DNA of 64,000 nt, from assembly GCA_963748215.1 (NCBI GenBank), contig CAVVHS010000005.1, positions 96,001 through 160,000 of the forward strand, read 5' to 3'. The DNA comes from an uncultured Gammaproteobacteria bacterium. Its GTDB lineage: Bacteria > Pseudomonadota > Gammaproteobacteria > UBA9214. The translations under genes and the position numbers were made by a program. A model generated the notes under the pieces. That model did not search any database and was not told the origin of the DNA. It was given only the letters and a program-made list of their open reading frames with translations. This document shows positions 2,557 through 46,998 of this stretch, in pieces (the first letter of the stretch is position 1; every line of letters begins with the position of its first letter).

Positions 2557-3816
2557 TTACATGATGGTCTGCAGGGCGTCGTGAGCCTGCTCAAATGCGT
2601 TGATATACAGTACGTTCAATTCCCCGGTTGGCAACAATTCGCAGGCCGGGTCGTGCCAGTTGCCGCGTTCCAACGCTATAGCGCACTTGATCTGATCGCC
2701 ATAGTGGCCAGTCTGATGGGTCAGGGCCTGCGCTACCTCGTCTGGCAGGGGCAATTGTCTCACCAGCTCCTTAATGGGCATATCCAGCAAGGTATCAAGC
2801 ACCGATAGCAGTCCCACAATGTAAGCACTCTCCGGGGTTCCTGTGTCGAGGCTGCGAGACAGGGACTCGCACAGATAGGCTCGTACCATGCCGGTAGTGA
2901 TGACCTCGGCGGATTTGTCTGTCTGGCGTGCCATGATTACCAGAGAGACCCAGGCACGGATGCGGGCCATGCCGATATAGATTACGGCCTGGCGGATGGA
3001 ATCCATCTGGCGGGGAAGGCCCAAACCCGCCGAGTTGATATATTTGAGTGCCTTGAAGCTCAGCGACGGATCCTGTGCAATGAGTCGTTCTAGGGTGTCG
3101 ATGGTGCAGTCGGGATTATTGAGTTTGGCCAGCAATTGCAATATAACCACCTGGTTTTGTTGCAGCCGGCGGCCGCTGACCAACTTGGGTTTGGCGAAGA
3201 AGTAGCCTTGGAACAGGTCGAACCCGAGCCGGTAGGCGAGCTCGAATTCAGCCTGGGTTTCCACCTTCTCTGCCAACAGGATCAGGCCCTGCTCCTTGAG
3301 GGCCTGCAAATGGTCGGCTAGAGCCTCCAAATCCAAACCGGTGATGTCCACCTTGATATGCGATACAAATGGCAGCAAGGGATCCCAGCGGGATTCAAAG
3401 CGATAGTCGTCCAGGGCCACCTGGTAGCCTGCCTCGGTCAGGCTCCTGACCGCCTCGATCAGCGGCGGGTCCACCGGGATGTCCTCCAAGACTTCAAGCA
3501 CCACCCGGTCTTTATAAAAGGGAATTGGCGGCAGTTCGGTGAAGAAGGTCTTGGTTAGATTGACGAAGATTTTGTGGGGACCTGCGATGCGCTCCAGGCC
3601 GATTTCAATGAAAGTGTTGAGCAAGGTGCGTGAAGTCGCCAGATCGCCATCGAAATCCCGTCCTGGCCCATGTCCCGCTTCGCGGTACAGTAGCTCGTAT
3701 GCTTGGGTGTTGAGATTTCTATCGAGGATTGCTTGGCGGCCCACCTGGACTGTATCGTGAACACGCTGCTTGTGGGCAGCTTGCCTATTCTTAAGTGGGC
3801 TTGACTGTTTTGACAT
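2557..3816 (-). CDS. EAL and HDOD domain protein (YuxH/PdeH-like c-di-GMP phosphodiesterase)
   Basis: GRQAI..AYELLYR, ALDDY, IKVD, LAEKVET, FQGYFF, then HDOD (QDPSLSFKALKYINS). Confidence 0.9.
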   Translation of the reverse strand: MSKQSSPLKNRQAAHKQRVHDTVQVGRQAILDRNLNTQAYELLYREAGHGPGRDFDGDLATSRTLLNTFIEIGLERIAGPHKIFVNLTKTFFTELPPIPFYKDRVVLEVLEDIPVDPPLIEAVRSLTEAGYQVALDDYRFESRWDPLLPFVSHIKVDITGLDLEALADHLQALKEQGLILLAEKVETQAEFELAYRLGFDLFQGYFFAKPKLVSGRRLQQNQVVILQLLAKLNNPDCTIDTLERLIAQDPSLSFKALKYINSAGLGLPRQMDSIRQAVIYIGMARIRAWVSLVIMARQTDKSAEVITTGMVRAYLCESLSRSLDTGTPESAYIVGLLSVLDTLLDMPIKELVRQLPLPDEVAQALTHQTGHYGDQIKCAIALERGNWHDPACELLPTGELNVLYINAFEQAHDALQTIM

Positions 3817-5811: not shown

Positions 5812-6984
5812 CTATTTATCTTTCAGGGTGTAGGCAATCAGCTTGCCGGAATTACCGAACACGTACAGCGTGTCCTTGATCGCCAGCGGCCTGGCGCGAA
5901 TACCCGCGCCGTCCGCCTCGATACGTGCGGCGATGTGTCCGTCATAGCGCGACAGCAGGTGCACATAGCCCTGCGAATCGGCAACGACGACATAATCGCC
6001 GAACGGTTGCGGGGCGGTCAGGCCGCGCCATGCCAGGCTGTCGTTCTTCCATGCCGAGGCCCCCGTGTTGCGTGACAGCGCCCACACCTGGCTCTTGTCA
6101 TCGGTGATGTAGACCTGCGAGAAGTCCACGCCCAGGCCCGCACTGGAAGACATATCGCGTTCCCAGCCGACGTTGCCGCTGCGCAGTTCGAGCATGGCGA
6201 TACGGCCCTGGTAGGTGGTAACGAACACGGCACCGCCGACGATCACCGGATCGCCGTCGATATCGACGATGCGCTCGAGTTCGGAGCGTCCCTGCGGGAC
6301 GGCAATGCTCTTCTCCCAGACCGGGAATCCCCTGTCAGCGCTGAACGCTACCAGCTTGCCGTTGGAGAAACCGGCCACCACCAGCCCCAGCGATACCGCC
6401 GGGGTGCTGGTGCCACGCAAGGTGAGCACCGGCACCGTCCGGTCGTTGATCCACAATTGACTGCCATCGGCGCCGTCCAGTGCGGCGATACTGCCATCGG
6501 CGGTTTGCACGATGACCTTGTCGAGGTCGATCCTGGGCACCGACAGCACCTCGCTGCTGACATCAACCCGCCAGCGCACGGCGCCGTCCCCGGCATCCAG
6601 CGCGATCACTTCCGCATCACTGCTGCCGACCACCACCATACCCTCGCCGACCCCTGGACCGGCCGCGAGCGCGGTGTCCATGTCAGTCGACCACAAGCGC
6701 TTGCCGCTTGCTGCATCGAGCGCCACGACCCGGCCCTTGCGGTCGGCGACGTACAATCGATCGCCGGCAACAGCCGGCTGCAGGTTGATGAACTGTTCGT
6801 CGTAACCGACGCCGATATCCACGCTCCAGCGTTTGTCGAATTGTGCCGACGCCTCGATGTCGGTCAGCGGTGTCGGCGGTTCGGCGTTGTCATCACCGCC
6901 GAGGATGCTGTCGAACCATGACGACATCGTCGAGCAGCCGGACAACAGGCTGCCGAGCAGGAACAGCAGCAGGACCTGTCTCAC
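5812..6984 (-). CDS. bamB: Outer membrane protein assembly factor BamB
   Basis: LSGC lipobox, PQQ-like beta-propeller repeats, GRSELERIVDID motif, synteny. Confidence 0.95.
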   Translation of the reverse strand: MRQVLLLFLLGSLLSGCSTMSSWFDSILGGDDNAEPPTPLTDIEASAQFDKRWSVDIGVGYDEQFINLQPAVAGDRLYVADRKGRVVALDAASGKRLWSTDMDTALAAGPGVGEGMVVVGSSDAEVIALDAGDGAVRWRVDVSSEVLSVPRIDLDKVIVQTADGSIAALDGADGSQLWINDRTVPVLTLRGTSTPAVSLGLVVAGFSNGKLVAFSADRGFPVWEKSIAVPQGRSELERIVDIDGDPVIVGGAVFVTTYQGRIAMLELRSGNVGWERDMSSSAGLGVDFSQVYITDDKSQVWALSRNTGASAWKNDSLAWRGLTAPQPFGDYVVVADSQGYVHLLSRYDGHIAARIEADGAGIRARPLAIKDTLYVFGNSGKLIAYTLKDK

Positions 6985-33439: not shown

Positions 33440-33484
33440 CGATGCCTTGTCTGTGTTATGGCGGCGTTATAAAGGGAGGTGACC

Positions 33485-33582
33485 TGTACCAGCCACACCC
33501 CGGCGCCCGAGTCCACTGCTGCCGCTGCTCCCTTCCGGGCCTGACGGGGTTCACAGCTTATCGTCGCGGGGGGACCGGCACA
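33485..33582 (-). ncRNA. ffs: Signal recognition particle 4.5S RNA
   Basis: Minus strand GTGAACCCCGTCAGGCCCGGAAGGGAGCAGC domain IV motif; ends pair; upstream of dnaX. Confidence 0.93.
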
Positions 33583-34175: not shown

Positions 34176-35982
34176 GTGAGCCTGCAGACCCTGACCTATA
34201 TTATCGTGGGCCTGAGTTTTGCCCTGTACATCGGCATCGCCATCGCCCAGCGCGCCACCAGCACCGGGGACTTCTACGTCGCCGGCAAGCACGTTCACCC
34301 GGTCGCCAACGGCATGGCCACCGCGGCCGACTGGATGTCGGCGGCCTCGTTCATCTCCATGGCCGGCCTGATCAGCTTCCTCGGCTACGAGGGCGGCATG
34401 TACCTGATGGGCTGGACCGGCGGCTATGTGCTGCTGGCCATGCTGCTCGCGCCCTACCTGCGCAAGTTCGGCAAGTTCACCGTGCCGGAGTTCATCGGCG
34501 ACCGCTACTACTCGCAGACTGGCGCGCGTGGTCGCGGTGATCTGCCTGATCTTCATCTCCTTCACCTACGTCGCCGGGCAGATGCGCGGCGTCGGCATCG
34601 TGTTCTCGCGCTTCCTGGAAGTGCCGGTGGACACCGGCCTGTTCATCGGCATGGGCGTGGTGTTCGTCTACGCCGTGCTCGGCGGCATGAAGGGCATCAC
34701 CTACACCCAGGTCGCGCAGTACTGCGTGCTGATCTTCGCCTATACCGTGCCGGCCGTGTTCATCGCCATCAACGCCACCGGCAACCCCTTCCCGCAGCTG
34801 GCACTGGGCAGCGAGCTGGTGGACGGTTCCGGTTCGCTGCTGGTCAAGCTCGACCGGACCCTGGTCGACCTCGGCTTCGGTTCCTATACCGAGCCGTTCA
34901 ATGACAAGTCGATGATCGACGTGTGCGCGATCACGCTGGCACTGATGGTCGGCACCGCCGGCCTGCCACACGTCATCGTGCGCTTCTTCACCGTGCCGCG
35001 CGTTCGCGACGCGCGCATCTCCGCCGGCTGGGCGCTGCTGTTCATCACCCTGCTCTACACCACCGCCCCGGCGGTCGGCGCGCTGGCGCGCATGAACCTG
35101 GTCGAGACCGTCAACGGCCCGGACGGCAGCGGCACCTTTTATGCCGCCATGCCCGCCTGGTTCAAGACCTGGGAGAGCTCCGGCCTGCTCGCCTGGTACG
35201 ACCACAACCATGATGCCAAGGTGCAGTACGCCGCGGGCAACGCCTTTGCCGGCGACGGCAAGCCGCAGTTCGATGACGAGCTGCGCGGGCCACTGCACGA
35301 ACGCCTCACCACCAACCCGGGTGAGGGCGAGATCAGCGCTGGCGCGCCGTTCGCCAACGAGATCTACGTCGACCGCGACATTATGGTGCTGGCCAACCCG
35401 GAGATCGCCGGGCTGCCGAACTGGATCATCGCCCTGGTCGCCGCCGGCGGCATCGCCGCGGCCCTGTCCACCGCGGCCGGCCTGCTGCTGGTCATCTCCG
35501 CCAGCATCTCCCACGACCTGCTCAAGAGCACGTTCGCGAAGAACATCAGTGAGCGCAACGAACTGATGGCCGGGCGCATCGCCGCCGGCGTGGCGATCTG
35601 CATCGCCGGCTACCTCGGCCTGCACCCACCCGCCTTCGTCGCCCAGGTGGTCGCGTTCGCCTTCGGCCTGGCCGCCGCATCATTATTCCCCGCCATCCTG
35701 ATGGGCATTTTCAACAAGCGCATGAACAAGTGGGGCGCGATCTGCGGCATGCTGGCGGGGCTGACCTTCACCCTCTGCTACATCATTTACTTCAAGGGCG
35801 TGTTCATCGAACCGATGGCCGCCAACATCCCGGAGAACTGGATCCTCGGCATCTCGCCCGAGGGCGCCGGTGTGATCGGCATGGTGATCAACTTCGTCGT
35901 GGCCATGGCGATCTCGCGCAACACCGCCCCGCCGCCGGCGCATATCCAGGAGATGGTGGAGGAGATCCGGGTGCCGCGATGA
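34176..35982 (+). pseudogene. Sodium:solute symporter (ActP-like), +1 frameshift near 34520 (may be a sequencing error)
   Basis: [27 protein letters not shown] / ARVVAVICL.., GTAGLPHVIVRFF, AALSTAAGLLL. Confidence 0.85.
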
Positions 35983-36140
35983 AATCAAGAAATCAATGGG
36001 GTCAGACTCGATTGATCAGACGTTATATTGGCGAATCGATGGAGTCTGACCCTTTTGATTCTGACCCTTTTGATTCTTCATTATTCTCTTATATTAACGA
36101 AAACCGGGATCTGACTCCGATTTACCGAGGAGGCGCTCAT

Positions 36141-36827
36141 ATGAAGCTCGCAAATCTGATTCTGTTTGCTTCGATTTCCTGTTGTCTGGCTGCCTGTGTG
36201 GACTTTACCGCAAAACTCGCCGCCATGTCTCCGGAGGAACTGGCGGGCATGTCGGACAAGAAGGTTTGCGCGATGGCGGGGTATACAAAGACTCTCCCAA
36301 ACTTTCGGCAGGAGTTGGAACGACGCGGGCTCAGCTACGGCATGTGCTGTTACAGGGATCTGTTGGACCGCTGCAACGCACAGTTCGTCCCCGTCAAGGG
36401 AGAGGTCCACACCCTGCACGCCACTGATGACGTAGAGCTCGTCATGGAAGGAGAAACCATCGAGCGACCACACATCAGGATCGGCAAACTCGTGGACAAG
36501 TGGTACGAAAATCTCAAGACCGGCGTGAACACGTATTCTTCCGGGGAATATGCCAGCGCGATCTCACAGGAACTGCTGACCGCCAACGGTCGGAAGCTGG
36601 TCCCGCACGCTGTCGTCGCCGAGCGCTTCGAGCAGGATTACCGGGAAAAGGCCATGGAGATCGGCGCGGACGCGGTGCTGGTCACCTTCACACGGATAGG
36701 CGTGCTGAGCGGTGCCGGCGGCCAGCCGATGTCTGTCATTCCCTCGCCGTATGGCCCGACCGTGGTGACAACGTCGGCAACGGGCACATCCTTCGAAATC
36801 GACCTCGTGGCCGTCAAGTATAAATAA
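36141..36827 (+). CDS. Hypothetical lipoprotein
   Basis: GAGGAGG RBS; LAAC lipobox; C-terminal KAMEIGADAV motif. Confidence 0.75.
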   Translation: MKLANLILFASISCCLAACVDFTAKLAAMSPEELAGMSDKKVCAMAGYTKTLPNFRQELERRGLSYGMCCYRDLLDRCNAQFVPVKGEVHTLHATDDVELVMEGETIERPHIRIGKLVDKWYENLKTGVNTYSSGEYASAISQELLTANGRKLVPHAVVAERFEQDYREKAMEIGADAVLVTFTRIGVLSGAGGQPMSVIPSPYGPTVVTTSATGTSFEIDLVAVKYK

Positions 36828-37001
36828 CTGCGTAATACAGGGGCCGGATACAGTTTATCAATGACTTGGAAAGTACATACGACCCCTTTTTGGCAAACAC
36901 CGCCCAATGACGGCCAGCACGGTCCATGGGCCTCCTGGCGCCTGCCAAAGTATGGGCTATACTGTGAGAACTGCTGAATAATCTGTAGCCGATCAGGTTG
37001 A

Positions 37002-37190
37002 CCATTCAGCAGGCCAGGGCCAGCGCACTGTCAGTCGAGGGTGGCATTGTACTCTGGCAATGGCGAAACCCTCGTTGGGCCTTGCCTGACTGCTAGGTGG
37101 ATGTGCGTTGTCCCCACGACAAGGTAAGACACAGAATAATCGGCTGCGGCGGCCTTCGGGCCGCCGTTCTGTATCTGGCACATCCTACCT
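37002..37190 (+). ncRNA. Candidate structured non-coding RNA (family unknown)
   Basis: Several long complementary segments and a C(UUCG)G hairpin; no credible ORF. Confidence 0.45.
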
Positions 37191-37326
37191 CATGAAAAAC
37201 GGGATCAGACTCGATCGATTAGACGAAACATTGACGAATCAACGCAGGCCTGACCCTTTTGATTCCCACGGCATATAATTGATAGTCAATCGCTCTTGAT
37301 CCTTTCGATTTTGGAGGTTTACCGGA

Positions 37327-38001
37327 ATGACTGGCTCTGACTCCGGGCACCCTTTCGGGTTGCCATTCACTCACGAATTTCCGACCGGTCATGGTTCGCT
37401 GTGCCTCACGGCAGTGCTCTTGCTGGTCGCCATCATCCTTGGGAACGTGCCGGTGCAGGCAGGTGTCTTGCACCGCCTGCCGAATGCAATACCGACGCCG
37501 GAGTTCGTGCTGTCCGGCCTGGATGGCGCAGAGTACCGGCTGAGCGATCTGCGCGGCAGCGTGGTGCTGGTCAACTTCTGGGCCAGCTGGTGCCAGCCTT
37601 GCGTCAAGGAGATCCCGAATCTGCAGCGGCTACACGCAAGTTACGCAGGCGAGCCCTTTGAAATCCTCGCCGTCGATGTCGAGGAGGATGAAAACCGGGT
37701 ACGCCATTTCGTTACGCAGCATGGCATGACCTTCCCGGTACTGCTTGACGAAGATGGCAAGCACTTTGCGGCCTGGGGCAGCCAGGTGCTGCCCACGACC
37801 TTCGTCATCGACGCCGCGGGCATGGTGCGTTACGTGGGGCTTGCCGATCTCGAATGGGATACCGGCGAGGCCCGCAGCGCCATCGATGGCCTGTTGGAGG
37901 AAGCGCGGAAATCATTGAGGTCAGACTCGATTGATCAGGCGTTATATAGGCGCGAGGAATCATTCGAATCAATGGAGTCAGAGTCGATTGATTCGATGTA
38001 A
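37327..38001 (+). CDS. TlpA-family thiol:disulfide oxidoreductase; start uncertain, C-terminus runs through a repeat site
   Basis: LVNFWASWCQPCVKEIP, LPTTFVID. Confidence 0.88.
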   Translation: MTGSDSGHPFGLPFTHEFPTGHGSLCLTAVLLLVAIILGNVPVQAGVLHRLPNAIPTPEFVLSGLDGAEYRLSDLRGSVVLVNFWASWCQPCVKEIPNLQRLHASYAGEPFEILAVDVEEDENRVRHFVTQHGMTFPVLLDEDGKHFAAWGSQVLPTTFVIDAAGMVRYVGLADLEWDTGEARSAIDGLLEEARKSLRSDSIDQALYRREESFESMESESIDSM

Positions 38002-38042
38002 TATTGTCCCATCATCGGTGTGCAGCCTTTTCATTTCCTGAA

Positions 38043-38552
38043 ATGAAGAAACGCTATCTCTATTCCATATTATTTGGCATACCCGGCCTTGCTGCTTCCC
38101 TGCTAATTACCTTTGCTATCTTTGGGGCCCTGGCCGGTTTTATGTGGATTTATGTTTATGGTGACAATCCGTGGCCCCCGTCCACAGGAACGATACTGCC
38201 TGCCTTCTTCATGCTCATTTTCCTGGCACTCTGGATTTCTTCCATCATCGCCGGATTCATAACCGGGAAAAGGTTTGAAGAAAGCCTGGACCTGGACAGG
38301 AACCATATTTGGGTTTCCGTCGACGCAACAGCGCTGCCGATCACGTTAATCATTCTTCATCAGTTTGGCATCGGCAATATAGGGCCAAAATCCGACAGCA
38401 GGCTTTGCAGTGAATTTTGCAGCGGAAAGGGATACGCGGCGAGCGGCATACCGCCAAAGGACTCGGGTGAAAGAACATGTATTTGTCTCGACAGCGCGGG
38501 TCAGGCTGCCATAACTGAATCAATGGGGTCTGAGTTGTTTGATTCGATGTAA
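38043..38552 (+). CDS. Hypothetical membrane protein
   Basis: Three hydrophobic segments, Cys-rich C-terminus; stop lies within a repeat site. Confidence 0.75.
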   Translation: MKKRYLYSILFGIPGLAASLLITFAIFGALAGFMWIYVYGDNPWPPSTGTILPAFFMLIFLALWISSIIAGFITGKRFEESLDLDRNHIWVSVDATALPITLIILHQFGIGNIGPKSDSRLCSEFCSGKGYAASGIPPKDSGERTCICLDSAGQAAITESMGSELFDSM

Positions 38553-38660
38553 TATCGACGCATCAGTGGATGTCCGGCCCTGCTGATTGCGTCATAGCAG
38601 CGAATGTTGTTATAAACTGCGCTTCAAAAAGAATGCCTGATAGGTGGAGGTAACAGCATT

Positions 38661-39059
38661 ATGAAACGCACATTACTGGCTGTAACTGCGGTATTCATTG
38701 CGTGGTCGCTTCTCGACTTCGTGATTCATGGCCTGTTGCTTCAATCCACTTATGAGGCAACCGCCAGTCTCTGGCGCCCGATGGAAGAAATGAAAATGCC
38801 GCTGATGTACCTTGTCACCCTGGTATACAGCGCCTGCTTCGTCGCCATTTATGGACTGCTGGGGAGTGAAAAGTCATTCGCAACAGGCATCCAGTACGGT
38901 GGCCTCTTCGGCCTGGCCGCCGGCATTTCCATGGGTTTTGGCTCCTACTCCTACATGCCAATCCCGTTGTCGCTGGCATGGGGCTGGTTATTCGGCGTGC
39001 TGGCCGAGTCAATCGTGGCTGGCGCACTGACTGGATTCATCCTGAAACCGGGAAAATAA
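38661..39059 (+). CDS. Hypothetical 4-TM membrane protein
   Basis: GGAGG RBS; DFVIHGLLL..Y..LWRP pattern; four hydrophobic helices. Confidence 0.8.
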   Translation: MKRTLLAVTAVFIAWSLLDFVIHGLLLQSTYEATASLWRPMEEMKMPLMYLVTLVYSACFVAIYGLLGSEKSFATGIQYGGLFGLAAGISMGFGSYSYMPIPLSLAWGWLFGVLAESIVAGALTGFILKPGK

Positions 39060-39135
39060 GGGAATGACTGTTGTCAGCGCACTTTCCCAGGAACATCAGA
39101 AAAAACTGTGCTGACACCGGGTCGCAGGACACACG

Positions 39136-39465
39136 ATGGCCTATGACGCAGACGTAGCACAGCGGTTGCGGGATGCATTTAAACGCAGAACCGATGTGGT
39201 TGAAAAGAAAATGTTCGGTGGTATCGCGTTCATGGTTTCCGGTCACATGTGTTGCGGTGTGCTCGGGAAGGAGCTCATGGCCCGTGTAGGACCCGCTCAA
39301 TATGAGGCGGCGCTGAAGGAGCCTTACGCCCGGGCAATGGATTTCACGGGCAAGCCCCTGAAGGGTTTTATCTATGTCGGCACCCGGGGCTTTGAATCAG
39401 ATGATGACCTGGAATCCTGGATTCGCCGCTGTCAGGCGTTTCTGAACACGCTTCCACCGAAGTAA
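39136..39465 (+). CDS. TfoX N-terminal domain protein
   Basis: MAYD, EKKMFGG..FM, MDFTGKPLKGF. Confidence 0.88.
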   Translation: MAYDADVAQRLRDAFKRRTDVVEKKMFGGIAFMVSGHMCCGVLGKELMARVGPAQYEAALKEPYARAMDFTGKPLKGFIYVGTRGFESDDDLESWIRRCQAFLNTLPPK

Positions 39466-39611
39466 TCGAAAAACAGAGGTCAAATCCCGGTTTTCGCTAA
39501 TATAATCAGGAATTGTGCTCTGACACCAATCTGCCGCATGCTTCCTCGCTATCTATGACACTGCTGGCAGAAAAGAAGCCGGATACATTAACTTGCGGAA
39601 TAAGAAAACCT

Positions 39612-39944
39612 ATGGCCAGGCACTCAAAAAGACACCGGATATCAGAAGCCACGCAAGGCGAAGCGATGCGAATAGCCCGTGGAATACAACAAGCAGGGCA
39701 GACAAAAGAACAGACGAAACTCATTGCTCAAGGGATTCAAAAAGGTATCGAGCAATACAAGAACCAGCAGAACGCCAAGAGCAGAGAACTGGACAAAAAG
39801 CTCAACAAGGCCAACCAGCAAGCCACACCACCCGTTGTGCGTGAAACTGAAGTACAGGAGAGGGTGACCTATAAACAACACTGGTTACCCTGGGCACTGC
39901 TCTTCCTCACATGGCTGGCTTTGAGTGCCTATTGGTTTACCTAG
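39612..39944 (+). CDS. DUF2956 family protein
   Basis: GQTKEQTKLIAQGIQKGIEQYK..KSRELDK; C-terminal WLPWALL TM. Confidence 0.88.
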   Translation: MARHSKRHRISEATQGEAMRIARGIQQAGQTKEQTKLIAQGIQKGIEQYKNQQNAKSRELDKKLNKANQQATPPVVRETEVQERVTYKQHWLPWALLFLTWLALSAYWFT

Positions 39945-40049
39945 AAAGATGGGTCCGAAAAAATAATTGAGGTCAGACCACAATTTTTCTTAATATTACT
40001 AACGACTATACTCCGACCCCGGATCACTTGGATCACCCTGGAGGATTAA

Positions 40050-40775
40050 ATGGTGACCTTGACGAAGGTTCGTTCAGATCCTGCACTACTCAACACACCA
40101 GAGAGTCAGCCGGCGTACAGACCTGATGATCTGTCAGATCATGCACACCGGCAACTGATCGGGTATATCGGTCTTCTTCTCCCGCTCATACTCATCTTCA
40201 TGGCCGTGGTCAGGGATGGTGTAGCGCAGTGGAGAAGCCTGGAGTCTATCAGCGCATATTATTACACCGGTGCAGTTGCTGCATTTGTGGGAATGCTGGT
40301 CGCTCTTGCGCTTTTCCTGTTCACCTACCGCGGCTACAGCAACAGGTACTACTGGGCAGACCGGGCGGCATCAAGCATCGCCGCAGTTGCTGCGCTTGGT
40401 GTGGCGATCTTTCCCACGGCAGCACCGGATGGTGTGCCTGTTTTATTCTGGTGGTCCCCGCTCACGGGGATCCTGCATTATGTGTTTGCCATCATTCTTT
40501 TCGTGATGTTTGCGGTATTCGCACTCTGGCTGTTCCGGATCAGGCCGGCCGGCGAGGAAGTCACACCCGACAAGCGGTGGCGCAACAGGGTATACCTCCT
40601 TTGCGGAATACTGATAGTTGCAAGCATTGTCTGGGCAGGTGTCGCCGGTAAAAACGGAAGATCCATTTTCTGGCCCGAGTCTGCTGCCCTGATTGCGTTC
40701 GCCGTGTCCTGGCTCGTCAAGGGCTACGCACATACAACGATCGCCAACGCCGCACGCTCTTTGTTCCGGCCGTAA
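40050..40775 (+). CDS. Hypothetical multi-pass membrane protein
   Basis: GGAGG RBS; RQLIG.IG..LP, SISAYYYT, FAVSWLVKG; about 7 TMs. Confidence 0.82.
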   Translation: MVTLTKVRSDPALLNTPESQPAYRPDDLSDHAHRQLIGYIGLLLPLILIFMAVVRDGVAQWRSLESISAYYYTGAVAAFVGMLVALALFLFTYRGYSNRYYWADRAASSIAAVAALGVAIFPTAAPDGVPVLFWWSPLTGILHYVFAIILFVMFAVFALWLFRIRPAGEEVTPDKRWRNRVYLLCGILIVASIVWAGVAGKNGRSIFWPESAALIAFAVSWLVKGYAHTTIANAARSLFRP

Positions 40776-41400
40776 TAAAGGGGCCAAACCAGAAACAGGG
40801 GTCAGATACGAGTTCCCGCTAATATTAGGGAAAACCGGGATCTGAACCCTGTATTCGAATCTGCGTTTCTTTAACTGAATGACCCCACTGATTGCCGTTG
40901 ATTACTGCCTTGTATGACATTCTTATCCGCCTGACATGTCAATCCTGACATATCCGTCATTAATGACAGTCGTCTTCAAGCGTACCGAGACCGGAAATCA
41001 TAGACATACTGCCCGATTACAGGCTGGCCTGAATTATGCATTCGTTATTGAATGCAACACAGCAAACAATCGTCTGTTTCGATGCCGGCCAGACCCGGCA
41101 AGGGCAAGGAGGATGAGACGGCATGACTCAATGGAATTTTCTGTTAGTCATAATTCTGCTGGCAATGGGCATATTGTTTTTTCGGCCCGGCACAAGCATA
41201 GAAGAGCTATCTGGAAAATCAATGATATCAGAGCACACTTACCAGGAATATCAGGCGAAATAGTGTTCTGACACCGCTTCACTTTTATACACCTACAGGG
41301 AACGGAGGGATTGGAAAGAATCCCTCTGCCCCTGTATGCACCGGGTTATACTGCCTCCGAATCAATACCGGTTCATATTTTCATCCCGTGCGGAGGAATA

Positions 41401-42156
41401 ATGAAAACACTCTTCCTTGCTTTCATTCTTGCCCTGGTCGGCCCCAACCCCTCGTACGCTCAGGATACCGGCCTGGATCGCGGCGATGTCGCCCTCATCA
41501 AGAAAAAGCTGGTGACGGTCCAAACGGCCCTGGGTGGCGACCCTGACGGGTATGCTCTGGATTCCGAAGCGTTCAACCTGCCCACCGACTTCAACCCCGC
41601 CCAGGCCGGTAAATTCCGGCCGATAAGATCGAGCCTGTCCCTGCGCTACAGTGACAAGGCCTCGAAGAACAGCCAGGCCGGTGTCGAGAAGGCTGCCGAG
41701 GATTTTCAGGCCAAATATTCCGCGGCGATTGCCAGCGGGGATCAAGCCGCCATGATGAAGATGATGGAAGAAATGCAAATGATGGCGACACAGGCTGCCG
41801 CGGCATCGATGGCGCCACAAAAACAGCCGATGTCGGTTTACGTTGGATTCAATACGGGCGGCGGCACCGGCATCGACCCTGACGCCGTGGTGTTTGAAAG
41901 GGCCGGCGTCATTGCCATCAGAAATAAAAAGCTCAACGAAGCACAAGGTGAGCTGTGGATATATATCGACCCGGTGGCACTGAAGGACAGTAAAAAACTT
42001 TCCAAGGTGGACATGAGCACACCTAACGACGGCGTGACGAAAAAGACCGGCGTCTTCAACATCACCATCCAGGCGAACGGCACACTCTCCGACCTGGAGG
42101 CTTGGGCGTCCAGGATGGACACGGACGCCATGCTCTCGGTGATCGACAGTCTCTAG
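41401..42156 (+). CDS. Hypothetical secreted protein
   Basis: GGAGGA RBS; signal peptide ending SYA. Confidence 0.78.
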   Translation: MKTLFLAFILALVGPNPSYAQDTGLDRGDVALIKKKLVTVQTALGGDPDGYALDSEAFNLPTDFNPAQAGKFRPIRSSLSLRYSDKASKNSQAGVEKAAEDFQAKYSAAIASGDQAAMMKMMEEMQMMATQAAAASMAPQKQPMSVYVGFNTGGGTGIDPDAVVFERAGVIAIRNKKLNEAQGELWIYIDPVALKDSKKLSKVDMSTPNDGVTKKTGVFNITIQANGTLSDLEAWASRMDTDAMLSVIDSL

Positions 42157-42223
42157 CACCTCCTGATACAGGGTCAGATCCCGGTTTTCGCCAATAATCG
42201 GAATCCGGGATTCTGACCCCGGC

Positions 42224-42949
42224 TCATTTATAGGTGGCAACCACGTCGCGCCACAGTGACTCGAATTTGTCCACGAACAACTCGAACGATGCGCGCTCGG
42301 TGATCCGACGTTCATCCTCGATCGCGGCGCGGGTTGCCCACACCGCGGCATTCTGATCACGCCAGGAGGTCGCTTCCGCCCTGCCGTAGACAAAGCCGGA
42401 ACGCACATCGACCAGTTGTGCCGAGGTCTTCACGGTAACACGCGCGCTCCTGTTCGGCGGAAAGCCCGGCTTGATGATCGCCAGCGGGTCGTACCTGGCC
42501 TGGTCGACACTGAATCGGGTATCCAGCGTATACAGCAACAGCAGGTCGGCATTAAGCCCCTCGGCCACAGGGCGCAGCGCATCGACCGTGTTCAGCGATG
42601 GCGGGAGCCGGTCCGGGGGCAGGCTGTCCACCCCGGCGACCTGCGGCAACTGCTGCAGGCGCTGGATTTCCCGTTCGGCTTCGATATTGCGGACGGTCAT
42701 TACGCAGAAGCGGCCCGTGCCGTAACAGGCGGGATTGGTCGTGCCATAGCCCGCCGCCTGTACCCGCACCAGCGCAATCCGCGCAGGAAACGCCGCGCCC
42801 GGCTGGCGTTTCTCCGCCGCACCGCCCGCGCCGGAGGCCGTCAGATCGGACAAAATCGCACCGGCACCCGGCGTCTGGTAGGTGGCGCAGCCGGACAGGG
42901 ACAGGAACAGCAACAGCAGGGAAAGTCGATATAGCATGGCAGGATTCAC
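42224..42949 (-). CDS. Hypothetical lipoprotein
   Basis: LSGC lipobox; FPARIALVRVQ, LVDVRSGFVYG. Confidence 0.8.
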   Translation of the reverse strand: MNPAMLYRLSLLLLFLSLSGCATYQTPGAGAILSDLTASGAGGAAEKRQPGAAFPARIALVRVQAAGYGTTNPACYGTGRFCVMTVRNIEAEREIQRLQQLPQVAGVDSLPPDRLPPSLNTVDALRPVAEGLNADLLLLYTLDTRFSVDQARYDPLAIIKPGFPPNRSARVTVKTSAQLVDVRSGFVYGRAEATSWRDQNAAVWATRAAIEDERRITERASFELFVDKFESLWRDVVATYK

Positions 42950-43137
42950 AATGTTGGAAAGGGAGCCAGAGTATAGATCGCAATGATGGAGGAATAAAAA
43001 CGGGAATCAAGGAATCAACAGGGTCAGATTCACTGCTGCCCCACATAGTCACCAGGAAAGTTTATTGAATGCGGCTATTCCAGTGATGGGATGGTGTTGA
43101 GCGGTACGTGGACATGAAATTCCGGAACAACAATGAT

Positions 43138-43224
43138 GTCATACCCGCGAAGGCGGGCATCCAGTAAGTCACTGATTAGCCGGGACACAAATAATCCTGG
43201 ATTCCCGCCTTCGCGGGAATGACG
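43138..43224. repeat. CGTC-type palindromic repeat
   Basis: GTCATACCCGCGAAGGCGGGCATCCAG...CTGGATTCCCGCCTTCGCGGGAATGAC. Confidence 0.8.
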
Positions 43225-43348
43225 GCTATGTGGAACAGCAGTGGGTCAGACTCGATTATTTCGATCCAATATTGACACAGCAGTGGCGCCAGCCCTTACT
43301 ATTGAGCGGGCTCACCTGCCCTATTCACAAACGGATCAAGGTACCCCC

Positions 43349-44254
43349 ATGCAACTTGACTCACTCAACGTACGTTTTGCAATCAACAATCACCTGGAGT
43401 TCGTTGCCGGCCAGGGCGGATTGACCAATGCCGTCATCAGCAATGACCTGGCCAGCGCAAGGGTTTCGCTGTATGCGGGACAGGTGTTGTCCTGGCAGCC
43501 GAAGGCAATGCAGCACGATGTGCTGTTTCTGAGTGACCGGGCGTATTACCAGGCCGGCAAGGCCATCAAGGGTGGCGTGCCGGTCTGCTGGCCATGGTTC
43601 GGCCCGGACCCACAGGGAAAGGGCCGGCCAGCGCACGGCTTTGCGCGCATCTCGGTGTGGGAGGTTCTGAACACGGCGGCGCTGGACAATGGCGCCACGC
43701 AACTGGTACTCGGCCTGACGCTGAATGACCAGACGCGTTCCCTGTGGGAGGGGGATATCGAGGCGCAGCTCGCGATCACGGTGGGCGACACGCTCAGGCT
43801 GGCACTGACCACACACAATCGCGGCAATGAGCCCATCGAGCTGAGCCAGGCACTGCACACCTATTTCGCGGTGGGCGATATCGCCAAAACCATGGTGAGC
43901 GGTCTGGAAGACAGGACCTATATCGACAAGGTCGACAACAGCAAGCAAAAAGTCCAGCTGGGTGCGGTGATGGTCAGCGGGGAAGTCGACCGGATCTACA
44001 CCGGTGTGGACCGCGAGTTACAGATTCACGACGCCGCATACAAGCGGGTGATACACATCAAGGCCGGGGGCAGCGCAAGTGCGGTCGTGTGGAATCCGTG
44101 GCAGGCCATCGCCGCCAGCATGGCTGACCTGGGCGATGAGGATTACCGCCACATGCTGTGCGTGGAGACTACCAATGCCGGACCAGACGTGGTAAATCTG
44201 GCAGCTGGCGCAAAGCATACGCTTAGTGCTGAATATGCAGCCACCGACATATAG
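43349..44254 (+). CDS. D-hexose-6-phosphate mutarotase (YeaD-like)
   Basis: GGVPVCWPWFG, HGFAR, ALHTYF, EVDRIY, VVWNPW, MLCVE. Confidence 0.92.
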   Translation: MQLDSLNVRFAINNHLEFVAGQGGLTNAVISNDLASARVSLYAGQVLSWQPKAMQHDVLFLSDRAYYQAGKAIKGGVPVCWPWFGPDPQGKGRPAHGFARISVWEVLNTAALDNGATQLVLGLTLNDQTRSLWEGDIEAQLAITVGDTLRLALTTHNRGNEPIELSQALHTYFAVGDIAKTMVSGLEDRTYIDKVDNSKQKVQLGAVMVSGEVDRIYTGVDRELQIHDAAYKRVIHIKAGGSASAVVWNPWQAIAASMADLGDEDYRHMLCVETTNAGPDVVNLAAGAKHTLSAEYAATDI

Positions 44255-44342
44255 CGGGGAAGCAAAACGCATCAGGGGTCGGTGATCAACCCTGATCAGG
44301 ATGTCGGGCCACCTGCGATGAAAAGTCATTACTGAATCAGCC

Positions 44343-44627
44343 ATGCAAAAAACAGACAACATGCCAATCTGGGTCTATCTCGCCTTCTCGAGCATCTCGA
44401 CGAGGAAGGGAGCGTTATTGCTGATCCTGGCCTGCGCGGTGTTTACCCTGTACTGCATCCCCTGGCCCCTGTTTTTCGCGCGCCCGGCCTGGCTTGTAAA
44501 CCTGTTTCTGATCGAGGACTGGAGCTGGTTTGCAATGATGGTTCCGATCACCTTGTGGTACTGGATAAGCTTAAGATGGATCGACAAAAACCATGCTTGG
44601 GCCGACACCGGCAAGAATGACAACTAG
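44343..44627 (+). CDS. Hypothetical small membrane protein
   Basis: MPIWVYLAFSSI.TRKGA; two TMs, Trp-rich. Confidence 0.7.
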   Translation: MQKTDNMPIWVYLAFSSISTRKGALLLILACAVFTLYCIPWPLFFARPAWLVNLFLIEDWSWFAMMVPITLWYWISLRWIDKNHAWADTGKNDN

Positions 44628-44765
44628 CCCGAAGACGGGGGACGGAGGGCATGCACCCCCCCGCCCCCTATCGTTACTTCTATGGAGACTGTCCCCGTGT
44701 TGCGTGCTGCTGTTACCCGTTCTGGCGAGACAGCTTCCATTGCTGCATGGCGAAAATGACGCCGC

Positions 44766-46644: not shown

Positions 46645-46998
46645 AGGGAAGCTCTGATTAATCCGTCATTCCGGGCGAAACCCGGACTTGATTCGGGGGG
46701 AGGCCCGGAATCCAGGTGTTACAATTCAGGCCGTTACTGGATTCCGGCCTCGGCTTTGGCTTCCTGCGTCGCTCTCGGCTCTGGCATGGCCCAGGCCAGT
46801 CTCTCGATCGCTGTGCGATCTCACCTTCTCCTGCTTCGCCCTGCCGAGTCCATCCATGGACTCGTACCTCCTCGGTAACTGCTCCATGCGTCGCCTGGAG
46901 GCGCCTACTTTTGGTACTTTACCTCCACATCCATGTAGTCATGCATCCCTGCAGTCGTGCGCCGGAATGACGAGCATTGATTTAATCAGAGCTTCCTT
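46645..46998. mobile_element. Composite MITE-like element (GGAAGCTCTGATTAA IRs) with nested repeats
   Basis: Terminal IRs; CGTCATTCCGG...CCGGAATGACG frame; contains the repeat shared with 14424-14475. Confidence 0.75.

What the first reader, a model, noticed from the sequence alone, without database searches (positions are those of the whole stretch)
35998..44696. Candidate non-integron gene-cassette array delimited by GGGTCAGA-core-TCTGACCC dyad sites
Seen: from the symporter stop to about 44.7 kb, nearly every intergenic gap holds a 47-65 bp dyad with a left arm GG(G/A)GTCAGA and a right arm TCTGAC(C/A/T)CC. Sites start at 35998, 36840, 37201, 37917/37974, 38525, 39070, 39476, 39969, 40798, 41224, 42171, 43013 and 43243, with degenerate ones at ~44275 and 44637. 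Each interval holds one short unrelated gene (lipoproteins, TlpA, membrane proteins, TfoX-N, DUF2956, mutarotase) or a non-coding segment. All but one gene are co-oriented and several are visibly less GC-rich than the core genes. I found no such dyads in the core blocks. Known: these are not attC sites (no RYYYAAC...GTTRRRY). From memory, GGGGWSAS-ended inverted repeats occur beside some Y1 HUH (RAYT-like) transposases. Inference: an integron-like capture/shuffling platform driven by an enzyme encoded outside this window.
Basis: partly seen in the sequence, partly recalled or inferred. Interest (0 to 1): 0.9.

Follow-up and report, generated by a model that had tools for sequence, protein, structure and literature searches.

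The report
REP palindromes punctuating a shuffled gene island
The repeated dyads are REP/REPIN-type palindromes belonging to a tyrosine (HUH) transposase encoded elsewhere in the genome, and they are unusual only in being packed between single genes in a few fast-rearranging islands instead of being spread over the chromosome.

Summary
The dyads are real but uneven. Of the 15 listed sites, 10 match profiles built from the genome's own copies. Only 3 (35998, 40798, 42171) still fold as strong hairpins. Sites 43013 and 43243 are one repeat arm split by a 213-bp MITE. Sites 44275 and 44637 are unrelated.

They are not attC sites. The genome has a separate classical integron on another contig.

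They are REP/REPIN elements. A 240-aa Y1 HUH transposase on contig C3 is flanked by inverted copies of the type-A arm. Its model's best structural match is the E. coli REP-associated transposase 4ER8. The same REP-transposase-REP unit occurs in 37 of 80 loci fetched from other Proteobacteria.

The distribution is unusual. 50 of 65 strong copies lie in four islands covering 3% of the genome. A second REP family in the same genome is dispersed.

These islands differ between close relatives gene by gene, with homology breaks next to the dyads.

The cassette-like anatomy and the shuffling are therefore supported. A dedicated integron-like capture mechanism is not shown. I rate it a new variant of a known kind, of moderate interest.

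The parts
34426..35982 (+). Sodium:solute symporter gene, the left conserved anchor of the island
   Evidence: Pfam SSF, E 3.4e-32. 83-91% identical protein in 8 same-genus genomes.
35991..36075 (.). Intact type-A REPIN (two inverted REP arms). Its right tail carries a 15-bp tandem duplication (36045-36077).
   Evidence: nhmmer 69.9 bits. ssDNA fold -18.2 kcal/mol, z -6.3. Tandem repeat.
36084..36123 (.). Half of a type-B/C dyad (right arm only)
   Evidence: nhmmer 27.7 bits. Sequence read.
36141..36827 (+). 228-aa lipoprotein-like gene with no Pfam family; module 1
   Evidence: ORF and sequence. No Pfam hit. 92-94% nt identity in G037 and G038, but on other contigs or in another context.
36836..36900 (.). 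Weak dyad with a GGGGCCGGATACA head variant. The same word flanks other copies of the MITE.
   Evidence: Not found by the profiles. Fold z -1.8. The word is seen beside MITE copies.
36962..37182 (+). Conserved non-coding segment ending in a GC-rich hairpin; candidate small RNA
   Evidence: RNA fold z -3.0. 79-94% nt identity in G002, G008, G037 and G038. No Rfam match at E<=1.
37198..37264 (.). Degenerate type-A REPIN
   Evidence: nhmmer 47.0 bits. Fold no better than shuffles, z -0.4.
37327..38001 (+). TlpA/AhpC-type thiol-disulfide oxidoreductase gene. Its last ~30 codons are encoded by REP arms.
   Evidence: Pfam AhpC-TSA, E 6.8e-27. The G002 homologue aligns only to residues 44-190. Sequence read.
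37910..38017 (.). Two type-A REP arms in tandem (37910-37970 and 37967-38017)
   Evidence: nhmmer 25.4 and 31.1 bits.
38043..38552 (+). 169-aa membrane protein gene, GC 0.49
   Evidence: ORF. No Pfam hit. GC.
38518..38588 (.). Type-A arm remnant overlapping the stop of the 169-aa gene
   Evidence: nhmmer 31.9 bits.
38661..39059 (+). 132-aa membrane protein gene
   Evidence: ORF. No Pfam hit.
39070..39116 (.). Hairpin TGTCAGCGCA...TGTGCTGACA. By eye it resembles the type-C remnant at 41224.
   Evidence: the repeat finder I12. Not found by the profiles. Fold z -0.7.
39136..39465 (+). TfoX N-terminal domain gene
   Evidence: Pfam TfoX_N, E 1.3e-16.
39469..39529 (.). Hybrid dyad: type-B left arm and type-C right arm
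   Evidence: nhmmer 39.1 bits. Fold z -0.65. Retained in G038.
39612..39944 (+). DUF2956 gene. This module is absent from the same place in G038.
   Evidence: Pfam DUF2956, E 1.5e-34. G038 lacks window 39538-40029.
39964..40026 (.). Degenerate type-B/C dyad
   Evidence: nhmmer 40.8 bits. The long hairpin is lost.
40050..40775 (+). DUF7103 membrane protein gene. It lies in a different position in G037 and in metagenome contigs.
   Evidence: Pfam DUF7103. G037 context. Joint 40770>38020 in 3 of 4 runs.
40791..40856 (.). Intact type-B REPIN (48-bp core)
   Evidence: nhmmer 58.3 bits. Fold z -5.4.
41123..41263 (+). 46-aa single-pass membrane peptide ORF preceded by a Shine-Dalgarno sequence, GC 0.40
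   Evidence: Sequence. Crude gene call. GC.
41228..41280 (.). Degenerate type-C dyad overlapping the end of the 46-aa ORF
   Evidence: nhmmer 24.2 bits. Fold z -0.7.
41401..42156 (+). 251-aa secreted protein gene with no Pfam family
   Evidence: ORF. No Pfam hit.
42166..42226 (.). Intact type-B REPIN between two convergent genes
   Evidence: nhmmer 46.1 bits. Fold z -4.65.
42224..42937 (-). 237-aa lipoprotein gene. It is conserved next to yeaD in G002, G008, G037 and G038.
   Evidence: tblastn 68-80% identity. blastn.
43022..43028 (.). GGTCAGA, the left copy of the target-site duplication made by the MITE.
   Evidence: Comparison with the empty sites in G037 and G038.
43031..43243 (.). 213-bp MITE (ends CACTGCTG...CAGCAGTG, internal 27-nt inverted repeat) inserted into a REP arm
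   Evidence: the repeat finder I1. Seven further copies in G000. Absent from G037 and G038 at this place.
43243..43292 (.). Single type-A REP arm, the target of the MITE
   Evidence: nhmmer 18.4 bits. Intact arm at the empty site in G037; inverted arm in G038.
43349..44254 (+).
   Evidence: 53-78% identical protein in 8 same-genus genomes. No NCBIfam hit at E<=0.01. I did not test the family name.
44343..44627 (+). 94-aa membrane protein gene, conserved after yeaD in G008
   Evidence: tblastn 74% identity.

Best explanation
The dyads are REP/REPIN elements. Each is a short palindromic doublet whose arm is a small stem-loop, for example AATCAAT-GGGGTCAGACTCG-ATTGATT in type A or AAACCGGG-GTCAGAT-CCCGGTTT in type B.

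They are the non-autonomous partners of a REP-associated tyrosine (Y1 HUH) transposase (RAYT). That gene lies at G000:C3:109399-110121, outside the window, and is itself bracketed by two inverted type-A arms.

Copies land in, or are kept in, the short gaps just 3' of stop codons, and then decay.

In this genus the family is not spread over the chromosome. It is concentrated in a few lower-GC islands made of single, unrelated, separately transcribed genes. The symporter-yeaD interval is one of four such islands in this genome.

These islands gain, lose and reorder genes one module at a time, and the dyads sit at the module boundaries.

Inferred, not shown: the palindromes act as portable recombination sites. 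Because each is its own inverted repeat, two copies can pair in either orientation. That allows deletion or excision, re-insertion at another copy, and inversion. The reaction could be RecA-type homologous recombination, RAYT-made single-strand cuts, or both.
For: Identity of the enzyme:
- Pfam Y1_Tnp, 60.2 bits against a cut-off of 23.
- The best NCBIfam model is REP_Tyr_transpos, 69.1 bits, ahead of IS200 at 24.5 bits.
- H60, H62 and Y120 are invariant in 20 aligned homologues.
- The AlphaFold model (pLDDT 84.2) has 4ER8, the E. coli RAYT bound to a REP hairpin, as top Foldseek match (E 1.6e-7, TMt 0.77), ahead of the IS608 and ISDra2 transposases.

Link between enzyme and repeat:
- Inverted type-A arms lie at C3:109280-109327 and 110098-110132, around the gene.
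- The 852-bp REP-RAYT-REP unit is 86% identical in G002 but has entirely different flanks. Homology ends exactly at ATCAAT...ATTGATT.
- The same unit, with near-identical ends, is present in 37 of 80 fetched loci from other taxa. 56 of 80 have at least one type-A hit.

Hairpin nature of the repeat:
- Fold z-scores of -4.7 to -6.3 for the three intact copies.
- 15 of 31 mirrored column pairs in the 13-copy B/C alignment show compensatory changes, e.g. CG 7 against AT 6.

Conservation in the lineage:
- The arm word occurs in 35 of 37 genomes of the genus. A reversed-word control gives 0-1 per genome.

Clustering:
- 50 of 65 strong copies lie in 3.0% of the genome.
- The median nearest-neighbour distance is 871 bp. 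In 1000 placements into intergenic gaps the mean was 17.8 kb and the smallest 3.2 kb.
- A GTAG-headed REP family in the same genome has 4 of 81 loci in those islands and a median spacing of 7.0 kb.

Module-wise change between relatives:
- The DUF2956 module is absent in G038.
- A four-gene block is absent between the 169-aa gene and the 46-aa ORF in G037.
- DUF7103 sits elsewhere in G037.
- G037, G038, G002 and G008 each carry extra modules.
- A contig joint 40770>38020 appears in 3 of 4 metagenome runs from two studies.
- The genes of the C3 island are present in G008 and G002 in scrambled order, and partly inverted, while the flanking core stays collinear.
Against: - The copy number is low for a classical REP family: 18 exact copies of the 16-mer and about 65 strong hits.
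- The RAYT misses NCBIfam's equivalog cut-off (69.1 against 80). phmmer found no PDB relative by sequence.
- No RAYT flanked by type-B/C arms was found, so the partner of 7 of the window's sites is only inferred from the shared GGGGTCAGA head and arm architecture.
- 10 of 37 genomes of the genus gave no RAYT match at E<=1e-10, yet several of them carry the repeat. Most of these are fragmented MAGs, so co-occurrence is inconclusive.
- No transposition or recombination event was observed directly.
- The 40770>38020 joint rests on one contig per run with 34-61 nt on the shorter side. It matches the order suggested by G037, so it most likely comes from a co-occurring relative, not from an excised circle.
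- Breakpoints near dyads are expected even without any role for them, because the dyads fill most of each 75-150-nt gap.
Confidence: 0.75

Rival explanations
1. A dedicated cassette system, a HUH-transposase analogue of the integron. The RAYT would cut at the REP arms and excise REP-bounded single-gene segments as circles. It would re-insert them at other REP sites. The islands would then be true capture and shuffling arrays.
For: - One gene per interval, with the dyad 5-25 nt after the stop codon.
- Extreme clustering.
- Module-by-module gain, loss and reordering between genomes that share 91-98% nt identity.
- The REP-RAYT-REP segment is a discrete REP-bounded unit found in different contexts.
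- The MsrA-Trx module lies next to the RAYT in G000 but in the symporter-yeaD island in G002. Homology ends 15 nt after one dyad and at the first base of the next REP.
Against: - Only 3 of the 11 window sites folded keep a hairpin clearly better than shuffles. That is not expected of sites under selection for a reaction.
- Dyads occur in adjacent pairs without a gene, for example C6:586426/586598 and C3:107052/107686, and as singles beside core genes.
- Gene orientation is mixed in the C3, C6 and C7 islands.
- In 78 of the 80 RAYT loci fetched from public genomes, which span many taxa, hits sit almost only beside the RAYT, with at most 5-6 per 20 kb.
- Where G000 and G038 differ by the DUF2956 module, the second dyad is a different sequence, not a recombinant of the two.
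- No circle junction could be told apart from an alternative linear order.
Confidence: 0.15
2. The dyads are fixed cis-acting elements with no mobility of their own. They would act as terminators, mRNA 3'-end stabilisers or protein-binding sites, kept because the island's genes are transcribed one by one.
For: - They lie just after stop codons. 33 of 54 have a gene 3' end within 40 nt, with a median of 23 nt.
- One sits between convergent genes (42166-42226).
- Roles in transcription termination and mRNA stabilisation have been proposed for REPs (background passages of PMC3733652).
Against: - No T-run follows them, and the terminator scan found no more sites than in shuffles (5 against 7.8).
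- Dyad type and presence change between close relatives while the neighbouring genes stay.
- Copies interrupt or rewrite coding 3' ends in TlpA and MsrA-Trx.
- A cognate transposase is flanked by the same arms.
Confidence: 0.06
3. Atypical attC sites, or a CALIN, served by the genome's integron integrase.
For: An integron integrase gene exists in the genome: TIGR02249, 443.7 bits against a cut-off of 265.
Against: - That gene carries an in-frame TGA and lies on another contig with its own array of classical sites (ATAACG...GTTAT type) and low-GC minus-strand ORFs.
- The dyads have no RYYYAAC/GTTRRRY boxes.
- They match the ends of a RAYT unit instead.
Confidence: 0.01
4. DNA-uptake sequences arranged as inverted pairs, as in Neisseria.
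For: A conserved 9-10-mer occurs in inverted pairs downstream of genes. A TfoX_N gene lies in the island.
Against: There are only 123 copies of GGGTCAGA in 3.5 Mb, concentrated in 3% of the genome and not across core genes.
Confidence: 0.01

Closest known systems
REP/REPIN elements and their RAYT transposases (E. coli TnpA-REP, PDB 4ER8; Pseudomonas fluorescens REPINs)
   Same: - A Y1 HUH transposase gene is flanked by inverted copies of the repeat.
- The repeats are hairpin-forming doublets of two inverted arms.
- They are extragenic and lie close to gene 3' ends.
- The family is conserved within a lineage.
- Several RAYT/REP pairs coexist in one genome.
(passages of PMC3116915 and PMC3390384 read.)
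   Different: - There are tens of copies, not hundreds.
- The head is GGGGTCAGA in a loop, not a 5' GTAG.
- Copies are concentrated in atypical, variable islands. [quoted passage not shown]
- Known REPIN clusters are tandem arrays without genes (PMC3116915). Here single genes lie between the copies.
RAYT genes with long terminal inverted repeats, and the widely distributed, more IS-like 'Group 1' RAYTs (Di Nocera 2013; Bertels 2017)
   Same: - The REP-RAYT-REP unit has ~27-nt inverted ends.
- It occurs across Gamma- and Betaproteobacteria and in one Desulfobulbales MAG, with near-identical ends although the proteins are only 59-69% identical.
- It sits in different contexts in close relatives.
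- Its flanking 16-mer has a low copy number.
(passages of PMC3733652 and PMC5581495 read.)
   Different: I could not assign the protein to a numbered group, because no reference set was at hand. The group label is an inference from distribution only.
Integron cassette arrays (attC + IntI)
   Same: - One short gene per interval.
- A structured palindromic site at the 3' end of each unit.
- Co-orientation in this particular island.
- Cassette-wise differences between relatives.
   Different: - No adjacent integrase.
- The sites lack the attC boxes.
- The units carry their own upstream regions.
- The other islands have mixed orientation.
- The genome's true integron is elsewhere and looks classical.

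Neisseria dRS3/NIME repeat arrays and 'minimal mobile elements' (the latter recalled, not read)
   Same: - Palindromic CGTC-class repeats clustered in mosaic intergenic regions (PMC3733652 passage).
- Gene-sized variable segments between conserved anchors, exchanged by recombination (recalled).
   Different: The lineage and the repeat sequence are different. Here a cognate RAYT is present. I did not test any homology.

Membership tests
REP/REPIN-RAYT system | A Y1 HUH transposase of the RAYT type (HUH motif, catalytic Tyr, RAYT fold) | tested here: met
   Pfam Y1_Tnp 60.2 bits. H60, H62 and Y120 invariant in 20 sequences. Top Foldseek match 4ER8, E 1.6e-7.
REP/REPIN-RAYT system | The RAYT gene is flanked by inverted copies of the genome's repeat | tested here: met
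   Arms at C3:109280-109327 (+) and 110098-110132 (-). The same arrangement in 37 of 80 other loci.
REP/REPIN-RAYT system | The repeat is a palindromic unit; doublets of inverted units form a hairpin (REPIN) | tested here: met
   Three intact copies in the window fold with z -4.7 to -6.3. Compensatory changes in 15 of 31 mirrored columns. Seven of the 11 folded sites are no better than shuffles and one is partial.
REP/REPIN-RAYT system | High abundance (usually >100 copies per genome, per the abstract of PMC2817692 in the listing) and spread through extragenic space | tested here: not met
   18 exact 16-mers; 65 hits at >=20 bits; 55 of 65 intergenic; but 50 of 65 lie in 3% of the genome.
REP/REPIN-RAYT system | A conserved GTAG or CGTC tetranucleotide tag beside the stem-loop (Di Nocera 2013) | tested here: inconclusive
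   By my count, 9 of the 37 arms listed are followed directly by TCGTCAA. The partner arms read (T/C)AGACG. No GTAG is present.
REP/REPIN-RAYT system | NCBIfam equivalog REP_Tyr_transpos (NF047646) at its cut-off | tested here: not met
   69.1 bits against a cut-off of 80. It is still the best-scoring model.
Integron | An integron integrase next to the array | tested here: not met
   The only intI-like gene is at C2:97400-98338, on another contig, and has an in-frame TGA. No tyrosine recombinase lies in the window.
Integron | attC sites with R''/R' boxes (RYYYAAC ... GTTRRRY) | tested here: not met
   Absent from the dyads. Present in the C2 array.
Integron | Co-oriented cassettes | tested here: inconclusive
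   11 of 12 genes are co-oriented here. Orientation is mixed in the C3, C6 and C7 islands.
IS200/IS605 insertion sequence | Several near-identical copies of the transposase unit in one genome | tested here: not met
   The genome holds one copy of the C3 RAYT. Its paralogues are 36-49% identical. A different RAYT on C9 does occur as two identical copies.

The most novel reading that the evidence does not exclude
REP arms and their RAYT form a second, integron-independent gene-cassette system.

Any gene that comes to lie between two REP arms would become a REP-bounded unit, like the RAYT gene itself. It could be cut out on single-stranded DNA and re-inserted at another REP.

A few chromosomal islands would then serve as shuffling arrays for single accessory genes. 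Those genes could be exchanged within a genus that shares the same REP.
Probability: 0.15. Interest if true: 0.85.

Novelty: new variant of a known kind. Interest (0 to 1): 0.45.

Why it matters
REPINs are usually described as dispersed, vertically inherited passengers of the core genome. Their effect on gene order is largely untested.

Here one REP family is almost confined to a few islands. Close relatives differ in those islands gene by gene. In the same genome a second REP family is dispersed, and a classical integron sits elsewhere. That gives a natural three-way comparison.

If the palindromes are the sites at which modules are exchanged, REP/RAYT systems would be a general route to cassette-like plasticity of ordinary chromosomal genes. 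This holds whether RecA or the RAYT does the work.

If they are not, the locus still shows how far a REP family can depart from the textbook distribution. It also supplies a very widely spread REP-RAYT unit with near-invariant ends, which is suitable for biochemistry.

Tried and rejected
Readings rejected:
- attC/integron reading: rejected.
- DNA-uptake-sequence reading: rejected on copy number and distribution.
- Known RNA family: Rfam at E<=1 gave only a sub-threshold chance hit on the first REPIN (Plastid-psbJ-4, 28.4 bits against 55.2) and nothing on the other dyads.
- Promoter or terminator role: the consensus scans found no more sites than in shuffles.

Searches that led nowhere:
- A sequence search of the RAYT against the PDB found nothing. 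Only the fold comparison did.
- Co-occurrence of the RAYT and the repeat across the genus is inconclusive, because most genomes are fragmented MAGs.
- Sequencing runs: all 20 listed holders are metagenome contigs and no RNA holder is listed. Laying four runs gave no way to tell a circle from an alternative linear order. Parts without cover are not interpreted.
- The 0.7-kb and 2-kb extra segments of G037 match G000 only at 70-73%, at other places (C6:882982-883408 between two REP arms, and C6:84337-85569). These are paralogues, not the same moved module.

Literature:
- Searches for the repeat sequence itself returned two unrelated papers.
- Searches on REPIN, RAYT, gene cassette, hypervariable and gene order returned no paper describing gene-interleaved REP arrays.
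- These searches cover only the held library, and supplementary tables were not available.

Tools and methods:
It misses low-GC genes such as the 169-aa and DUF2956 genes, so the intergenic counts are approximate.
- The four islands were delimited after seeing the hits. The nearest-neighbour and per-10-kb statistics do not depend on that choice.

Full report
OBSERVATION

The word GGGTCAGA occurs 8 times in the window. All 8 lie between 35999 and 43250. Chance expectation is 1.64, and 0 of 100 shuffles reached 8.

Reading the sequence and aligning genome copies shows related palindromic elements that share GGGGTCAGA...TCTGACCCC:
- Type A has a 52-bp core. Its arm is AATCAATGGGGTCAGACTCGATTGATT.
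- Types B and C have a 48-bp core. Their inner stems differ, and the centre is AATATT-like.

Each arm is itself a small stem-loop with GTCAGA in the loop.

Profile HMMs of both classes gave 96 merged hits at E<=1 in the 3.52-Mb genome. Twelve are in the window, and all twelve lie between 35991 and 43292.

As single-stranded DNA, only 35998, 40798 and 42171 fold far better than shuffles (z -6.3, -5.4, -4.7). 39969 is partial. Seven others tested are not distinguishable from shuffles.

Sites 43013 and 43243 are a single type-A arm. A 213-bp MITE inserted into it and duplicated GGTCAGA. G037 and G038 have the empty site.

Sites 44275 and 44637 are unrelated hairpins.

Three further claims hold:
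- The interval is GC-poorer: 0.549 against 0.629 and 0.605.
- It holds one gene or one non-coding segment per gap.
- 11 of its 12 genes share the + strand.

WHAT THE SITES ARE

A search of the whole genome for Y1 HUH transposases found five matches.

The best is a 240-aa ORF at C3:109399-110121. Inverted type-A arms bracket it, at 109280-109327 and 110098-110132.

The evidence that it is a RAYT:
- Its best NCBIfam model is the REP-associated tyrosine transposase, at 69.1 bits. This is below the equivalog cut-off of 80 but ahead of IS200 at 24.5.
- H60, H62 (the HUH motif) and Y120 are invariant among 20 homologues.
- An AlphaFold model (pLDDT 84.2) has the E. coli RAYT-REP complex 4ER8 as its best PDB match (E 1.6e-7, TMt 0.77). 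IS608 and ISDra2 transposases follow.
- phmmer against PDB sequences found nothing.

The 852-bp REP-RAYT-REP unit is 86% identical in the relative G002, but its flanks there are unrelated. Homology stops exactly at ATCAAT... and ...ATTGATT.

A scan of one genome per species found 290 relatives of the protein. Of the 80 loci kept, 56 carry at least one type-A hit. In 37 the gene is bracketed by ATCAATGGGGTCAGACTCGA...TCGAGTCTGACCCCATTGAT.

By their record titles, these loci come from Gamma- and Betaproteobacteria and one Candidatus Electrothrix MAG. The proteins are only 59-69% identical, so the ends are far better conserved than the enzyme.

Type-B/C hits occur only in the two loci that belong to this genus.

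The genome also holds two other RAYT/REP pairs:
- Two identical RAYT copies on C9, with GGGGACAGACCACGTTTTCGTCAA repeats.
- A RAYT on C2, with GTAGGAGCG repeats.

The dyads are therefore REP/REPIN elements of a known general kind.

WHAT THEY ARE NOT

The genome carries a true integron on contig C2. Its integrase gene scores 443.7 bits against a cut-off of 265 and has one in-frame TGA.

Beside it lies an array of classical sites (ATAACG...GTTAT type) between low-GC ORFs on the minus strand. The GGGGTCAGA dyads have no such boxes.

No tyrosine recombinase and no Y1 transposase lies in the window.

WHAT IS UNUSUAL

The first unusual feature is the distribution.
- Of 65 hits at >=20 bits, 50 lie in four islands: C3 100-140 kb, C5 131.9-139.4 kb (this finding), C6 580.6-590.4 kb and C7 210-259 kb. 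Together these make up 3.0% of the genome.
- The median nearest-neighbour distance is 871 bp. In 1000 random placements into intergenic gaps the mean was 17.8 kb and the smallest 3.2 kb.
- The densest 10 kb holds 11 copies, against at most 6 at random.
- The islands were drawn after seeing the hits. The two statistics do not depend on them.
- In the same genome the GTAG-headed REP family has 81 loci with a median spacing of 7.0 kb. Only 4 of them lie in the islands.
- The relative G002 shows the same clustering of the type-A word. By my count of the listing, 28 of its 37 matches lie in three stretches.

Published surveys that I read in passages describe a different picture:
- Most REP families are spread through the genome, with a few clustered exceptions (PMC3733652).
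- REPIN clusters are tandem arrays next to RAYTs (PMC3116915).
- In the Pseudomonas fluorescens group, the regions of atypical composition are REP deserts (PMC3390384).

Here the repeats favour the atypical, lower-GC regions.

The second unusual feature is what the islands do. Their genes are ordinary and unrelated:
- In the window: an AhpC/TlpA-type redoxin, TfoX_N, DUF2956, DUF7103, and lipoproteins and membrane proteins with no family.
- Around the RAYT: ABC-F, a class-I amidotransferase, a GST, a D-Ala-D-Ala carboxypeptidase, an MsrA-thioredoxin fusion, an asparaginase and a BNR protein.

Orientation is mixed in the C3, C6 and C7 islands.

Between genomes that share 91-98% nucleotide identity in common segments, the symporter-yeaD interval differs module by module:
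- G038 lacks window 39538-40029 (DUF2956). It keeps the preceding dyad and has a different half-dyad after it.
- G037 goes from the 169-aa gene through 0.5 kb straight to the 46-aa ORF. The 132-aa gene, TfoX_N, DUF2956 and DUF7103 are not there.
- In G037, DUF7103 lies on another contig, behind the lipoprotein gene, a dyad and 2 kb of other DNA.
- G037 also has an extra 0.7-kb segment between two dyads just after the symporter gene.

In more distant relatives:
- In G002 the two anchors are 29 kb apart, and TlpA, the 237-aa lipoprotein gene and yeaD are adjacent.
- G008 lacks the symporter and has 1.25 kb of other DNA in place of the 46-aa and 251-aa genes.

All homology breaks that are not contig ends lie within about 0-26 nt of a dyad.

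Contigs from 3 of 4 metagenome runs, from two studies, join 40770 to 38020. That places DUF7103 directly before the 169-aa gene. It fits the order suggested by the two G037 contigs.

The C3 island behaves the same way:
- In G002 a 24.6-kb island containing the RAYT lies between two genes. In G000 those two genes are separated by a single REPIN.
- The genes of the G000 island recur in G008 and G002 in a scrambled and partly inverted order. The neighbouring core is collinear.

The MsrA-Trx gene lies next to the RAYT in G000 and in the symporter-yeaD island in G002. In G000 its reading frame is cut short exactly where the REP begins.

MECHANISM

Shown:
- The repeat family has a cognate RAYT.
- The arms are conserved hairpins. 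15 of 31 mirrored columns in the B/C alignment carry compensatory changes.
- Copies lie just after stop codons: 33 of 54 within 40 nt, median 23 nt. They can rewrite gene ends.
- The copies cluster.
- The clustered regions rearrange at single-gene grain.
- The REP-bounded RAYT unit occupies different contexts in different genomes.

Inferred: the palindromes are the places where modules are exchanged. A palindrome is both a direct and an inverted repeat of every other copy. Recombination between two copies can therefore delete or excise a module, re-insert it at a third copy, or invert it. This fits the mix of losses, relocations and inversions seen.

The data cannot say whether RecA-type recombination on 16-26-nt identical stretches does this, or RAYT cuts on single-stranded DNA.

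Points against a dedicated, selected cassette reaction:
- Most copies are decayed.
- Dyad pairs occur with no gene between them.
- There are singles beside core genes.
- Orientation is mixed in the other islands.
- RAYT loci of other taxa have no arrays.
- The G000/G038 difference is not a simple recombinant of two dyads.
- Because the dyads occupy most of each 75-150-nt gap, proximity of breakpoints to them is weak evidence on its own.

VERDICT

The sites are REP/REPIN elements with an identifiable RAYT, and they are not attC sites.

A dedicated capture platform is not demonstrated.

I file it as a new variant of a known kind: a REP family confined to gene-interleaved, fast-shuffling islands. 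Interest is moderate at 0.45.

The boldest reading that the evidence allows is a RAYT-driven analogue of the integron. I put it at about 0.15.

RAYT group tables in supplements might allow a firmer classification.

Noticed in passing
G000 contig C2:85000-98338 (L018), outside the window: A classical chromosomal integron. The integrase gene scores 443.7 bits on TIGR02249 but has one in-frame TGA. Beside it is an array of attC-type repeats between low-GC (0.38-0.56) short ORFs on the minus strand.
   Followed up: partly
window 43031-43243: A 213-bp MITE (ends CACTGCTG...CAGCAGTG) inserted into a REP arm, with a GGTCAGA duplication. The genome holds 8 copies, 4 of them inside the REP islands. Other copies sit beside GGGGCCGGATACA words. 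G037 has one directly after its DUF7103 gene. It appears to target REP heads.
   Followed up: partly
window 36962-37182: A non-coding segment conserved at 79-94% in four relatives, sometimes in other contexts. Its RNA fold has z -3.0 and it ends in a GC-rich hairpin. It has no Rfam match. It is a candidate small RNA that occupies one 'module' of the island.
   Followed up: partly
window 33484-33580 (-): Bacterial small SRP RNA (Rfam RF00169, 69.5 bits).
   Followed up: no
G000 C9:316002-316676 and C9:333335-334009; C2:111905-112123: Two further RAYT/REP systems. The first is an identical RAYT pair 17 kb apart, flanked by GGGGACAGACCACGTTTTCGTCAA repeats. The second is a shorter RAYT among GTAGGAGCG-type REPs that are dispersed over all contigs.
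   Followed up: partly
L015 ~3330-3400 (G037) against L012 ~5830-5870 (G038), the site upstream of yeaD: The same REP arm has its 13-nt loop (AGGGTCAGACTCG) in opposite orientation in the two close relatives, between the same AATCAAT/ATTGATT stems.
   Followed up: no
window 37917-38001; G000 C3:109280: REP arms supply the last ~30 codons of the TlpA-like gene. They truncate the MsrA-thioredoxin gene, whose G002 copy reads on for at least 40 more codons.
   Followed up: partly
window 46650-46990: Another repeat-rich stretch (GTCATTCCGG...CCGGAATGAC type ends) with high summed contig depth and many joints in all four metagenome runs.
   Followed up: no
L020-L099 (public genomes): The ends of the REP-RAYT-REP unit are almost invariant across classes of Proteobacteria, while the transposase is only ~60-69% identical. 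The DNA ends are under much stronger constraint than the protein, or the unit spreads horizontally.
   Followed up: partly
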